Source: Eledone cirrhosa (Eukaryota). Taken from it: DNA of 64,000 nucleotides. The stretch lies in assembly GCA_964016885.1 (NCBI GenBank), contig OZ024750.1:11780001-11844000 (forward strand), in the 5' to 3' direction. This document shows positions 26,131 through 59,496 of the stretch, piece by piece. Made by a program: the position numbers and the translations under genes. Under the pieces are notes generated by a model. It was not told where the DNA came from and made no database searches. It saw nothing but the letters and a program-made list of their open reading frames with translations. Position 1 is the stretch's first letter. Each line of letters begins with the position of its first letter.

Positions 26131-26333
26131 ATATTTAATATAGAAATGGCTTCTATAGGACTAGAACTGTTTCATTGGAAGGAAATCATCTGGAAAGCCC
26201 TGGTGATTTCCTGATGATTTCCTTCGAAGTTCTAGTTCGGTAGAAGCCATTTCGATATTAAATATTTATACTCTATGTATTGAGTACCTTACTTACTGTC
26301 GTTACCCCCGATTGAACCCGGGATACACACACA
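26131..26333. mobile_element. Penelope-like palindromic remnant, family A (inverted hammerhead-bearing arms plus tail)
   Basis: Inverted repeat 26131-26265; arms contain C(T/A)GATGA...GAAA; tail gtattgagtacc...gaacccgggat; flanked by (CA)n. Confidence 0.7.
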
Positions 26334-31360: not shown

Positions 31361-31475
31361 ATAAAGAGTCGGGACCCTGACAGCTGAGCTCTTGCTGGTT
31401 CAACAGCTAGTCCCAGACTCTAGAACTAGCTGTTGAAACGGCAAGAGCTCAGCTGTCGGAGTCCCAACTCTTTAT
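31361..31475. mobile_element. Penelope-like palindromic remnant, family B
   Basis: ~50-bp inverted arms; the + arm has GAAACGGC-loop-GCTGTC (hammerhead stem III plus GUC); lies between (CT)n and (CA)n. Confidence 0.65.
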
Positions 31476-40500: not shown

Positions 40501-40540
40501 TTTAAATGTGATAATATGGAAAAGGATATATATAAATGAC

Positions 40541-40585
40541 TTCTACAGGTCTAGAACTGTTTCATTCGTATGAAATCATCAGGAA
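40541..40585 (-). ncRNA. Minimal type I hammerhead ribozyme motif (left arm of palindrome 40538-40639)
   Basis: uuc CUGAUGA u uuc auac gaa u GAA ACAG uucuagac CUGU A gaa: all three stems, complete core, GUA site, U-U at the base of stem II. Confidence 0.7.
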
Positions 40586-41155
40586 TATAATTCCTGATGA
40601 TTTCATACGAATGAAAATTCTAAACCACCTGTAGAAGTCCTTTTTATGTACAATAAAGATGCCTATGCTCTACCAACATATTGAGTCTCTTCTTTAATTG
40701 TGCCCCCCCCCCCCCCTCCCCACCACCACTTGGGAACCTGTGTGTATGTATGTGTGTGTGTGGGGGGGGGGGTCATGTGAGCGTTTGCTGTGACTTTTCT
40801 TATGTCATAGTTTTTATTTTCATGTTTTATTTTTAGGTCCACTTTGGTTTTAAGTAGCAATGTAATTTTAGTGAGGTTATTGTTCAAAATTGAATGGTTA
40901 TTGGGGTTAATGACTGCAGAAGAAAACAGAGAAAAGCACTTGATTAAGGATGGTGTTCTACAGAAAGAAAGAAACATTAGTTAAGATATTTAGATGGGAA
41001 ATATATAATAGTGAGACATGAGGAGTGACTGCTACATCCAGTATAATTTGGTGGAGATAGTAAATACTTTGTTTGAGGAGAAACTCGTAGGAGGTTAGTC
41101 AAATGATGAAACTTAACAAATGTAAAACCTTGGTAAGTTAAAACTTATTCATTAA

Positions 41156-43489: not shown

Positions 43490-43570
43490 GCAAAGTTTCA
43501 GAAGATCCCGTTAAGGGTGAAAGCAGCGATTCTTTGCTTAAACTTTAATCTGTTATTTTAATTTTTAAAA

Positions 43571-43604
<34 letters not shown>

Positions 43605-43739
43605 GTGTGTGTAATGTGTAATTTTATAATGTGTAATATAATATATATATATATATATGTGTGTGTAATGTGTAATTTTATAATGTGTAATATAATATAT
43701 ATATATATATGTGTGTGTAATGTGTAATTTTATAATGTG

Positions 43740-43777
<38 letters not shown>

Positions 43778-43839
43778 TAAAATAACAGATTAAAGTTTAA
43801 GCAAAGAATCGATGCTTTCACCCTTAACGGGATCTTCTG
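43490..43839. repeat. 64-bp inverted repeat (1 mismatch) around a TA-rich spacer; arms carry a hammerhead-like motif
   Basis: 43499-43562 versus 43776-43839; motif CAGAAGA t ccc gttaa ggg t GAAA. Confidence 0.85.
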
Positions 43840-55175: not shown

Positions 55176-57630
55176 TGGACCTCACTGCAGACCTGATTCT
55201 GTAGGCCTCACAGAAGACATGATACTGTGGACCTCACAGAAGACATGATACTGTGGGCCTCACAGAAGACATGATTCTGTGGACCTCACAGAAGACATGA
55301 TTCTGTGGACCTCACAGAAGACACGATACTGTGGACCTCACAGAAGACATGATTCTGTGGACCTCACAGAAGACATGATTCTGTGGACCTCACAGAAGAC
55401 ATGATATTGTAGGCCTCACAGAAGACATGATTCTGTGGACCTCACAGAAGACATGATACTGTGGGCCTCACAGAAGATATGATACTGTGGACCTCACAGA
55501 AGACACGATTCTGTGGACCTCACAGAAGACACGATTCTGTGGACCTCACAGAAGACACGATTCTGTGGACCTCACAGAAGACACGATTCTGTGGACCTCA
55601 CAGAAGACACGATTCTGTGGACCTCACAGAAGACATGATTCTGTGGACCTCACAGAAGACACGATTCTGTGGACCTCACAGAAGACATGATATTGTAGGC
55701 CTCACAGAAGACATGATACTATGGCTCACAGAAGACATGATATTGTAGGCCTCACAGAAGACATGATTCTGTGGACCTCACAGAAGACACGATTCTGTGG
55801 ACCTCACAGAAGACATGATATTGTAGGCCTCACAGAAGACATGATTCTGTGGACCTCACAGAAGACACGATTCTGTGGACCTCACAGAAGACACGATTCT
55901 GTGGACCTCACAGAAGACACGATTCTGTGGACCTCACAGAAGACATGATATTGTAGGCCTCACAGAAGACATGATTCTGTGGACCTCACAGAAGACATGA
56001 TACTGTGGGCCTCACAGAAGATATGATACTGTGGACCTCACAGAAGACACGATTCTGTGGACCTCACAGAAGACACGATTCTGTGGACCTCACAGAAGAC
56101 ACGATTCTGTGGACCTCACAGAAGACACGATTCTGTGGACCTCACAGAAGACATGATTCTGTGGACCTCACAGAAGACACGATTCTGTGGACCTCACAGA
56201 AGACACGATTCTGTGGACCTCACAGAAGACACGATTCTGTGGACCTCACAGAAGACACGATTCTGTGGACCTCACAGAAGACATGATTCTGTGGACCTCA
56301 CAGAAGACACGATTCTGTGGACCTCACAGAAGACATGATATTGTAGGCCTCACAGAAGACATGATACTATGGCTCACAGAAGACATGATATTGTAGGCCT
56401 CACAGAAGACATGATTCTGTGGACCTCACAGAAGACACGATTCTGTGGACCTCACAGAAGACATGATATTGTAGGCCTCACAGAAGACATGATTCTGTGG
56501 ACCTCACAGAAAACACGATTCTGTGGACCTCACAGAAGACACGATTCTGTGGACCTCACAGAAGACACGATTCTGTGGACCTCACAGAAGACACGATTCT
56601 GTGGACCTCACAGAAGACACGATTCTGTGGACCTCACAGAAGACACGATTCTGTGGACCTCACAGAAGACATGATACTGTGGACCTCACAGAAGACATGA
56701 TACTGTGGACCTCACAGAAGACACGATTCTGTGGACCTCACAGAAGACACGATACTGTGGGCCTCACAGAAGACATGATTCTGTGGACCTCACAGAAGAC
56801 ACGATTCTGTGGACCTCACAGAAGACACGATTCTGTGGACCTCACAGAAGACACGATTCTGTGGACCTCACAGAAGACACGATTCTGTGGACCTCACAGA
56901 AGACACGATTCTGTGGACCTCACAGAAGACACGATTCTGTGGACCTCACAGAAGACACGATTCTGTGGACCTCACAGAAGACACGATTCTGTGGACCTCA
57001 CAGAAGACACGATTCTGTGGACCTCACAGAAGACACGATTCTGTGGACCTCACAGAAGACACGATTCTGTGGACCTCACAGAAGACACGATTCTGTGGAC
57101 CTCACAGAAGACATGATACTGTGGACCTCACAGAAGACACGATTCTGTGGACCTCACAGAAGACACGATTCTGTGGACCTCACAGAAGACACGATTCTGT
57201 GGACCTCACAGAAGACACGATTCTGTGGACCTCACAGAAGACATGATACTGTGGACCTCACAGAAGACATGATACTGTGGACCTCACAGAAGACACGATT
57301 CTGTGGACCTCACAGAAGACACGATTCTGTGGACCTCACAGAAGACATGATTCTGTGGACCTCGCAAAGGACATGATACTGTGGACCTCGCAAAGGACAT
57401 GATACTGTGGACCTCGCAGAGGACATGATACTGTGGGCCTCGCAGAGGACATGATACTGTGGGCCTCGCAGAGGACATGATACTGTGGGCCTCGCAGAGG
57501 ACATGATACTGTGGGCCTCGCAGAGGACATGATACTGTGGGCCTCGCAGAGGACATGATACTGTGGGCCTCGCAGAGGACATGATACTGTGGGCCTCGCA
57601 GAGGACATGATACTGTGGGCCTCACAGAAG
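55176..57630. repeat. 26-bp satellite, ~94 copies
   Basis: Unit ctcacagaagacacgattctgtggac; 3' block variant ctcgcagaggacatgatactgtgggc. Confidence 0.98.
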
Positions 57631-58548: not shown

Positions 58549-58614
58549 ATGACAGAAGGCCGCAAAACACAGGTTATTTTGTTGGATGAAAATAGGCTTG
58601 ACATCACTATACAG
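58549..58614 (+). CDS. FRMD4: FERM domain-containing protein 4 (FRMD4A/B-like), first FERM exon MTEGRKTQVILLDENRLDITIQ
   Basis: tttttatctttccag|ATG...CAG|gtaaat, 66 nt, phase 0/0. The peptide closely resembles vertebrate FRMD4A MTEGRRCQVHLLDDRKLELLVQ (recalled sequence). The rest of the gene lies beyond the window. Confidence 0.9.
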
Positions 58615-58688
58615 GTAAATATATCGAAACAATTGTTAATTAATTAATTAATTAATTTCCATTGAGCCAGTCAATATTATTAATAATT

Positions 58689-58875
58689 GTTTCTACTTTC
58701 GGCACGAGGCCAGCAATTATCTCTGTGTGTTACTGGTGCTTTATTTTATCGACCCCGTAAGGATGAAAGGCAAAGTTCACCTCGGCGGGATTTGAACTCG
58801 GACCATAAAGGGCCGTAACTCTTTGCTGCAAAGCATGGCGTCCGACCTTCTACCGATACTGCCAACTCACCGCCG
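58689..58875 (-). mobile_element. tRNA-derived SINE
   Basis: Full-length young-family copy. Confidence 0.92.
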
Positions 58876-58975: not shown

Positions 58976-59012
58976 ATGGTATTACCAATTTCAAACTGAT
59001 TCCATCCTGATT

Positions 59013-59068
<56 letters not shown>

Positions 59069-59484
59069 TAAGAATATTTTCGAAGCAGTGATCGAGTTTG
59101 AAATTATAAATGTAAGCTATCGCCGTATTTTGACTAAAGAAATAAATTAAAGAAATTATTTAGCCTGATAGTGGGGTTAAGAACCCTCGGAGAAATGGAA
59201 AAAGATGAGTATTGACGTACATGGGAGTCATGTGTTGGTGTAATGGCAGCACAGTGGTCTGGATAACCGCAGATGTGGGTTCGACTCCCATGTACGTCAA
59301 TACTCATCTTTTTCCATTTCTCCGAGGGTTCTTAACCCCACTATCAGGCTAAATAATTTCTTTAATTTCTTTAGTCAAAATACGATGATAGCTTATATTT
59401 ATAATTTATATATATATATATCAAGTACCTATATATATATATATATAAATCAGGATGGAATCGGTTTGAAATTGGTAATACCAT
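58976..59484. repeat. Nested inverted repeat: outer 38-bp arms, (TA)n, inner ~125-bp arms
   Basis: 58976-59013 versus 59447-59484; 59101-59229 versus 59283-59407. Confidence 0.92.
59229..59299 (+). tRNA. tRNA-like cloverleaf (anticodon GGA, short variable loop); probable pseudo-tRNA or SINE head
   Basis: A box TGGTGTAATGG; D stem GTGT/GCAC; anticodon stem GTGGT/ACCGC with loop CTGGATA; T arm GTGGG-TTCGACT-CCCAT; acceptor 6/7 paired with three G-U; T5 at 59309-59313. Confidence 0.65.
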
Positions 59485-59496
59485 GATGATGATATA

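What the first reader, a model, noticed from the sequence alone, without database searches (positions are those of the whole stretch)
58976..59484. Nested 510-bp hairpin with a tRNA-like cloverleaf at its apex
Seen: outer 38-bp arms, then (TA)n, then inner ~125-bp near-perfect arms enclose a 53-nt loop that is the 5' three-quarters of a tRNA-like sequence. The unit reads as tRNA head plus a ~110-140-nt tail ending in (TA)n, with a 5'-truncated inverted copy placed head-to-head. This is the same geometry as the hammerhead palindromes. Inference: a tRNA-headed SINE-like element mobilised by Penelope-type rather than LINE machinery, which would be an unusual partnership. It also places long dsRNA ~360 nt downstream of the FRMD4 exon.
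Basis: partly seen in the sequence, partly recalled or inferred. Interest (0 to 1): 0.75.

Follow-up and report, generated by a model that had tools for sequence, protein, structure and literature searches.

The report
tRNA-headed repeat with Penelope-type insertion footprint
The hairpin is one of thousands of copies of a short non-coding repeat with a tRNA-like head that sits in the genome with the mirrored, one-sided-tail footprint of Penelope-like jumping genes, so it likely borrows their enzymes rather than the LINE enzymes that such repeats normally use.

Summary
The hairpin is real. Its inner part is one copy of a 260-267 bp repeat with at least 4,225 marker matches in this octopus-like genome. 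The unit has a near-complete tRNA-like head with A and B boxes, a body, a ~37-nt tail and a spacer. It occurs as head-to-head inversions, partial tandems and one 25-unit array. In an unselected sample, 54 of 83 loci are inverted; 44 of those 54 pair a long with a short 3' end; 115 of 137 ends abut (TA)n; none has poly-A. That is the published Penelope-like (PLE) footprint. 15 of 42 heads begin within 6 nt of tRNA position 1, and the head is conserved between subfamilies (2/71 versus 23/152 differences), pointing to Pol III transcripts as templates. There is no intact hammerhead, and no coding partner with a shared end was found in 42 PLE loci. The outer arms are not part of the element: they are a local inverted copy of a neighbouring repeat's end. 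Expression and editing are untested. The closest precedent is schistosome SMalpha. The scan earlier noted a similar pairing in another octopus genome, for a hammerhead-bearing family.

The parts
58549..58614 (+). 22-codon exon of the host gene (FRMD4-like by recall only); the hairpin lies in the following intron
   Evidence: AG/GT bounds seen; no Pfam or PDB hit for the 22 aa
58907..59013 (+). 3' part of a separate abundant repeat; its last ~40 bp form the left outer arm
   Evidence: 1,787 candidates, 40 scored at 89-93%; copies shown
59011..59065 (.). left (TA)n run, the insertion target
59066..59229 (-). inverted 5'-truncated arm, unit positions 267 to 108, ending at the family's long 3' end
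   Evidence: 95% to the family reference
59066..59100 (-). 35-nt one-sided tail (unit positions 233-267), unpaired in the hairpin
   Evidence: family-wide long/short pairing
59230..59407 (+). direct arm, unit positions 55-232: starts at tRNA position 2 and ends at the family's short 3' end
   Evidence: 97% to the family reference
59229..59299 (+). tRNA-like head (pseudo-tRNA; the Ser-GGA call is not a real identity; D arm resembles tRNA-Gln)
   Evidence: Rfam 40 bits, ARAGORN, comparison with the genome's tRNA-Gln genes
59236..59246 (+). A-box-like motif
   Evidence: sequence; identical to the same stretch of the genome's tRNA-Gln genes
59278..59288 (+). B-box-like motif (T arm)
   Evidence: sequence; consensus recalled
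59309..59313 (+). T5 run 10 nt after the head, a potential Pol III terminator that must be read through
   Evidence: sequence; conserved in both subfamilies
59408..59448 (.). right (TA)n run, interrupted at 59421-59427 by 7 nt that match the outer end of the inverted long arm in other copies (possible aborted priming)
   Evidence: interpretation is inference
59445..59487 (-). right outer arm: locus-specific inverted copy of the left flank
   Evidence: 22-nt pattern found only at the two arms genome-wide; shares this copy's private variants

Best explanation
The inner hairpin is one insertion of an abundant non-coding tandem repeat with a tRNA-like head, likely transcribed by RNA polymerase III and likely copied into (TA)n by the reverse transcriptase and endonuclease of a Penelope-like element. 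SHOWN: unit anatomy, copy number, head-to-head layout with 3' ends outward, two preferred 3' ends ~37 nt apart with one at each side, (TA)n flanks, partial tandems, clustering of 5' ends at the tRNA start, conservation of the head. INFERRED: (1) Pol III starts near unit position 50, reads through the T5 run and runs past the tail into the next unit, so only tandem loci can be source copies, and the 'upstream' spacer is really the RNA's 3' part. (2) The PLE enzyme nicks both strands of (TA)n and starts copying inside the RNA at two sites, one per strand, as reported in vitro for an anole PLE. (3) The two cDNAs stop at different points, often at the T arm or the RNA's 5' end, and are joined end to end, giving the palindrome. 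In the window one cDNA ran to tRNA position 2 and the other stopped in the T loop, which leaves the cloverleaf at the apex. This copy has no downstream spacer and is probably a dead end. The outer arms are a local inverted copy of flanking DNA.
For: 4,225 exact matches of a 19-mer, 0 for the control. First 100 listed matches = 83 loci: 54 inverted, all with 3' ends outward, 29 one orientation only. Of the 54, 44 pair a long with a short end, 0 long/long, 0 short/short, 10 have an eroded end. A second sample of 40 loci gave 23 inverted: 15 long/short, 1 long/long, 2 short/short, 5 eroded. (TA) within 25 nt at 115 of 137 ends against 287 of 2,559 window bins; poly-A at 0 of 137. Partial tandems and a 25-unit array with the same ends. 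These features match the PLE description in PMC8557442 and PMC3846280, and the two start sites in PMC11167929 (passages read). 15 of 42 heads begin at positions 48-56, 6 of them at 50, against 1 in positions 15-47. Subfamily differences: 2 of 71 in the head, both in the anticodon loop, against 23 of 152 in spacer, body and tail, Fisher p = 0.006. RT plus GIY-YIG ORFs exist in the genome (10,596 candidates; both domains in 4 of 5 ORFs scanned).
Against: No coding PLE with a shared end was found: 0 of 42 GIY-YIG loci by BLAST and nhmmer, and none of 56 tandem-junction matches led into an ORF; 42 loci are a small part of 10,596 candidates. No intact hammerhead (no Rfam hit; core in 1 of 74 units). 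A T5 run right after the head should stop most Pol III transcripts. More than half of the 42 heads run on into an upstream unit, which a Pol II read-through of arrays would also give. 15 of 52 junctions sit on one palindromic 4-mer, which later loop deletion could also produce. The short end is fuzzy (about positions 189-232). No RNA data were seen.
Confidence: 0.8

Rival explanations
1. PLE-mobilised, but the tRNA head is a passenger: a pLTR-derived tandem repeat (retrozyme-like, hammerhead decayed) that captured a tRNA and is copied from Pol II read-through of arrays.
For: More than half of the 42 heads run into an upstream unit. T5 follows the head. One subfamily is one substitution from a hammerhead core, with a GAAA motif further on.
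Against: 5' ends pile up at positions 48-56 (15 of 42). The head is more conserved than the rest. RNase P cleavage or RT stalling could explain ends at 53-55 but less well the six at position 50.
Confidence: 0.1
2. An ordinary LINE-mobilised SINE whose copies were inverted afterwards by fold-back repair at (TA)n.
For: tRNA head with A and B boxes. (TA)n-centred inverted duplications do occur in this genome (2 of 79 control runs).
Against: Fold-back would give two equal ends, yet 44 of 54 pairs are long/short with none long/long. No poly-A. Tandem units join across a spacer that an ordinary SINE would lose.
Confidence: 0.05
3. A palindromic DNA transposon (MITE or foldback element) with long terminal inverted repeats that targets TA.
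For: Long inverted arms and TA flanks.
Against: The centre differs from copy to copy, the two ends are unequal, 29 of 83 loci show one orientation only, and head-to-tail arrays exist.
Confidence: 0.03
4. Assembly fold-back artefact, or a selected host RNA structure that regulates the neighbouring exon.
For: Near-perfect palindrome; 358 nt from an exon in the sense strand.
Against: The arms differ by 3 substitutions and an indel; the layout recurs at dozens of loci with different junctions; the copy is 3-5% from the family reference, like its siblings. Reads were not seen.
Confidence: 0.02

Closest known systems
Insertions of endonuclease-bearing Penelope-like elements (Penelope/Poseidon, Neptune, Naiad; PMC8557442, PMC3846280, PMC11167929; passages read)
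   Same: Partial tandems, adjacent inverted 5'-truncated copy, 30-40 bp one-sided tail, microsatellite target that hides any TSD, palindromes at inversion junctions.
   Different: No ORF, no intact hammerhead, a tRNA-type Pol III head, and no sequence match to any PLE end examined.
Schistosome SMalpha / Sjalpha SINE-like repeats (seen through review PMC6765202 and PMC8490949, passages; the 1998 original was not read)
   Same: Short tandem repeat, apparently Pol III-transcribed, where an upstream unit is needed to transcribe the next.
   Different: SMalpha has an active hammerhead; this family has none intact. The passages I read do not tie SMalpha to PLE-type inversions or tails.
Metazoan non-LTR retrozymes (PMC7229834, passages; bioRxiv 10.64898/2026.07.22.740005, parts 1-3 of 5 read)
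   Same: 170-400 bp tandem non-coding units proposed to be mobilised by PLEs.
   Different: Defined by a type I hammerhead, which is missing here; no tRNA head is described in what I read; no rod-like fold here (z from -2.6 to +1.4).
Non-autonomous Chlamys PLEs such as MRC1 of Chlamydomonas (PMC8557442, passage)
   Same: Non-coding, head-to-tail copies, mobilised by PLEs that lack hammerheads.
   Different: They generally share 3' sequence with an autonomous family (not found here); no tRNA head is mentioned in the passage.
Classical tRNA-derived SINEs (general knowledge, recalled)
   Same: tRNA-derived head with A and B boxes, short, non-coding, thousands of copies.
   Different: No poly-A, no LINE-type end seen, two alternative 3' ends, inversions in most copies, and a retained upstream spacer.

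Membership tests
Non-autonomous Penelope-like element | Adjacent inverted 5'-truncated copy, head to head | tested here: met
   54 of 83 loci; 23 of 40
Non-autonomous Penelope-like element | 30-40 bp tail at one end only | tested here: met
   44 of 54 long/short, 0 long/long; 15 of 23 long/short, 1 long/long, 2 short/short; 35 nt in the window
Non-autonomous Penelope-like element | Partial tandem copies | tested here: met
Non-autonomous Penelope-like element | Microsatellite or AT-rich target | tested here: met
   115 of 137 ends against 287 of 2,559 background bins
Non-autonomous Penelope-like element | End shared with a coding PLE | tested here: inconclusive
   0 of 42 GIY-YIG loci, out of 10,596 candidates
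Non-autonomous Penelope-like element | Mobilisation by PLE protein shown | not testable with these tools
   needs an in vitro or cell assay
tRNA-derived SINE | tRNA-derived head with A and B boxes | tested here: met
tRNA-derived SINE | Pol III transcription from the head | tested here: inconclusive
   indirect only: 15 of 42 heads start at positions 48-56, head conserved; no RNA data
tRNA-derived SINE | LINE-type 3' end (poly-A or LINE-derived tail) and LINE-type insertion | tested here: not met
   poly-A at 0 of 137 ends, two alternative ends, frequent inversion; no LINE library was available to compare tails
tRNA-derived SINE | Target-site duplication | tested here: inconclusive
   cannot be read inside (TA)n flanks
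Non-LTR retrozyme / SMalpha type | Type I hammerhead in each unit | tested here: not met
   no Rfam ribozyme hit; core in 1 of 74 units; no related family with an intact core among 6 pattern matches
Non-LTR retrozyme / SMalpha type | Short tandem non-coding units | tested here: met
   260-267 bp units, up to 25 in tandem
Non-LTR retrozyme / SMalpha type | Circular RNA expressed | not testable with these tools
   no reads were available
Functional tRNA gene | Fixed anticodon and canonical anticodon arm | tested here: not met
   anticodon-loop positions vary between subfamilies; short variable arm with a Ser call and U37; 40-45 bits against 70-75 for the best real tRNAs
MITE / foldback DNA transposon | Fixed terminal inverted repeats with equal ends | tested here: not met
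   unequal ends and variable centre

The most novel reading that the evidence does not exclude
A true SINE of the Penelope world: a Pol III, tRNA-headed RNA with no ribozyme that is copied by a telomerase-related PLE reverse transcriptase. It keeps a circularly permuted, tandem layout because the enzyme starts inside the RNA and needs sequence beyond the tail. Its tRNA fold is under selection: the leader pairs with the trailer and the T5 run in an extended acceptor helix, and the T arm (possibly m1A58) stops the enzyme and fixes the commonest palindrome centre. With the hammerhead-bearing family noted earlier by the scan, SINE-PLE pairing would have arisen more than once in octopuses.
Probability: 0.55. 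Interest if true: 0.72.

Novelty: new variant of a known kind. Interest (0 to 1): 0.58.

Why it matters
SINEs are taught as parasites of LINEs. A tRNA-headed family with a clean PLE footprint in thousands of copies would widen that rule, and I found no paper describing it. At 260 nt and ribozyme-free, it is a natural minimal substrate for the open question of what a PLE enzyme recognises and why it starts at two internal sites; the published in vitro system makes this directly testable. It also seeds long intronic double-stranded stretches across a cephalopod genome. The single locus is probably an inert copy.

Tried and rejected
Outer arms as part of the element: rejected; inverted flanks occur at 3 of 82 family loci and 2 of 79 control TA runs, so they are not a family trait. 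Hammerhead or other ribozyme: none by Rfam or motif scan; a search for a sister family with an intact core gave 6 matches, one of them a rearranged family copy. Coding partner: not found. Rod-like circular fold: not supported. A-to-G editing fixed in DNA: A>G 11.3 against T>C 9.4 per 1,000, no unit above 3 A>G among 74. Parent tRNA: D arm matches tRNA-Gln at 17 of 18, but whole-head identity (43-45 of 71) is no better than to other tRNA-like hits (35-45 of 71), so the isotype is unassigned. Twin start signal suggested by earlier scan notes: a 9-nt motif is repeated just past both ends in one subgroup (chance about 5 in 10,000 for one pair, post hoc) but is degenerate in the others: inconclusive. 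The Rfam microRNA hits are generic hairpin matches below their cut-offs. Expression and editing in reads remain untested. Repbase, Dfam and the supplements of the octopus repeat papers were not seen, so the family may already be catalogued as an unclassified SINE.

Full report
OBSERVATION. The nested hairpin is at the stated coordinates. The outer arms match at 41 of 43 bases; the inner arms (59101-59229 and 59283-59407) differ by 3 substitutions and a 4-nt indel and close a 53-nt loop. The fold is far beyond chance (z = -35). The tRNA-like sequence lacks only its first base: Rfam scores 59229-59299 at 40 bits against a cut-off of 29, and ARAGORN calls it. A T5 run follows 10 nt later. The left arm carries 35 nt (59066-59100) that the right arm lacks.

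THE FAMILY. The window lies in a 3.0-Gb genome (G000); that it is an octopus is my reading of its repeats, echoed by earlier scan notes, and no call names it. The inner unit gave 1,660 candidates, 40 scored. A 19-mer at the head's 3' end has 4,225 exact matches and its control 0. Head-to-tail copies define a closed unit of 267 bp, with a 260-bp second subfamily: spacer 1-53, head 54-124, trailer with T5, body to about 230, tail to 267. One locus has 25 full units, 85% alike on average, with an inverted arm at one end and (TA)n at both. Units differ from their subfamily by 7.4 private changes on average.

INSERTION FOOTPRINT. I took all of the first 100 listed 19-mer matches, which are 83 loci. 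54 are head-to-head inversions with 3' ends outward and 29 show one orientation. Among the 54, 44 pair a long end (255 or more) with a short end (200-236); none is long/long or short/short; 10 have an eroded end. 115 of 137 ends have TA repeats within 25 nt, against 287 of 2,559 bins of the window; none has poly-A. A second sample used a pattern in the head's 5' half that caught only one subfamily (513 matches): 40 stretches in order along contig 1 from 88 to 330 Mb, leaving out places already held. It gave 23 inversions: 15 long/short, 1 long/long, 2 short/short, 5 eroded (short defined as 185-236). Junctions vary, but 15 of 52 mapped lie on one palindromic 4-mer at positions 114-117, at the T-arm/acceptor boundary; that sample required positions 117-135, so the peak is partly favoured by selection. 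Craig et al. list partial tandems, an adjacent inverted 5'-truncated copy, a 30-40 bp one-sided tail and microsatellite targets as PLE traits (PMC8557442, passages). Arkhipova et al. describe the same with junction palindromes (PMC3846280, passages). Frangieh et al. show a PLE protein cutting and extending both strands and starting at two internal RNA sites that bound the tail, with no need for hammerhead cleavage (PMC11167929, passages).

THE HEAD. It has A- and B-box-like motifs; the D arm matches the genome's tRNA-Gln genes at 17 of 18, but whole-head identity does not settle the parent. It is not a working tRNA: the anticodon loop varies between subfamilies. Between subfamilies (39 and 35 units) the head differs at 2 of 71 positions and the trailer at 0 of 20, against 23 of 152 in spacer, body and tail (p = 0.006). 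The leader can pair with the trailer and T5 to extend the acceptor helix; two of its three variable positions are A/G opposite U, which keeps pairing, and the third is C/U opposite A. Of 42 heads, 17 mapped to start at 48-56; I dropped 2 where BLAST shows the unit continuing, leaving 15, six of them at position 50 and one beside a run of N. Only 1 true start falls in 15-47; most others run into an upstream unit. This points to templates that began at the tRNA start.

WHAT IS MISSING. No ribozyme: Rfam finds only the tRNA and 1 of 74 units has a hammerhead core. The 260-bp subfamily is one substitution from a core, with a GAAA motif just before the short end, so a decayed hammerhead is possible but unproven. 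Coding PLEs are abundant (10,596 GIY-YIG candidates; RT and GIY-YIG in 4 of 5 long ORFs scanned), but none of 42 such loci shares sequence with the unit, and none of 56 tandem-junction matches leads into an ORF. No RNA data were seen. Genomic copies show no A-to-G excess.

OUTER ARMS. The left arm is the end of another abundant repeat (1,787 candidates). The right arm shares this copy's private variants and the pattern occurs only here, so it is a local inverted duplication. Such flanks occur at 3 of 82 family loci and 2 of 79 control TA runs. Whether it formed during this insertion is unknown; the 7-nt piece of the long end inside the right TA run hints at repeated priming.

MECHANISM. Most likely (0.8): Pol III starts near position 50 at a tandem locus, reads through T5 and past the tail into the next unit; a PLE enzyme nicks both strands of (TA)n and copies from two internal sites; the two cDNAs are joined end to end. 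Steps at the RNA and protein level are inferred. The tandem requirement would explain why a spacer upstream of an internal promoter is kept. Rivals: passenger head with Pol II read-through (0.10), LINE-driven SINE inverted later (0.05), DNA transposon (0.03), artefact or host function (0.02).

KNOWN SYSTEMS. It works like a non-autonomous PLE and meets all four layout tests, but a shared end with a partner is not shown. It has a SINE head but fails the LINE-type end test. It fails the retrozyme test for lack of a hammerhead (PMC7229834, passages; bioRxiv 10.64898/2026.07.22.740005, parts 1-3 of 5; hammerhead variants from PMC4209133, passages). Schistosome SMalpha is the nearest precedent: Pol III, tandem, hammerhead (PMC6765202 and PMC8490949, passages). 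Passages of two cephalopod repeat surveys list SINEs and PLEs separately and do not link them (PMC13282606, PMC8967140); their supplements and libraries were not seen. Searches found no paper on a tRNA-headed SINE mobilised by PLEs; most subscription journals, Repbase and Dfam are outside these searches. Earlier scan notes report a tRNA-plus-hammerhead family with TSDs and the PLE footprint in another octopus genome; a sequence look-up found no look-alike of this family. Those notes are unchecked here and are not evidence.

VERDICT. It is a new variant of a known kind: a tRNA-headed, ribozyme-free repeat with a PLE footprint. Interest 0.58, held down by the missing partner, the lack of RNA evidence, the SMalpha precedent and the chance that the family is already catalogued.

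Noticed in passing
L244 (G000:C1, about 131,458,900-131,465,800): 25-unit tandem array of the finding's family, units about 85% alike, with an inverted 1.5-unit arm at one end and (TA)n at both; a candidate old source locus or nascent satellite.
   Followed up: partly
L247, L249-L257: A second, unrelated tRNA-like gene (53-72 bits, anticodon varying among GGC, AGC, GAC, GGT, GTC) lies about 300 bp inside a long AT-rich repeat that begins sharply after TA; it lacks the PLE layout and its far end was not found. Possibly a DNA transposon carrying a pseudo-tRNA.
   Followed up: partly
window 58676-58866 (- strand): An abundant repeat with more than 20 matches in the window that looks like an ordinary tRNA-SINE by recall; a useful contrast, with no inversion or tail seen.
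   Followed up: no
window 43499-43839, 40527-40650, 26131-26265, 31361-31475: Other fold-back repeats; the first three have hammerhead-like cores reading outward, one with a CAGA variant core.
   Followed up: partly
L194:624-1153: Six tandem 58-bp repeats of the head (positions 57-113) inside one insertion, suggesting repeated template jumps from the RNA's 5' end back to the T arm.
   Followed up: no
L202-L213: Long open RT plus GIY-YIG frames of several PLE families, up to 938 aa; two (L207, L212) lie as inverted pairs. Candidates for an in vitro test.
   Followed up: partly
G000:C1 about 168,211,000-168,276,000: A cluster of about 20 tRNA-Gln D-arm matches, many at regular 1.4-2.5 kb spacing.
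   Followed up: no
window about 57000-57630: Minisatellite of a 26-bp unit with two variant blocks.
   Followed up: no
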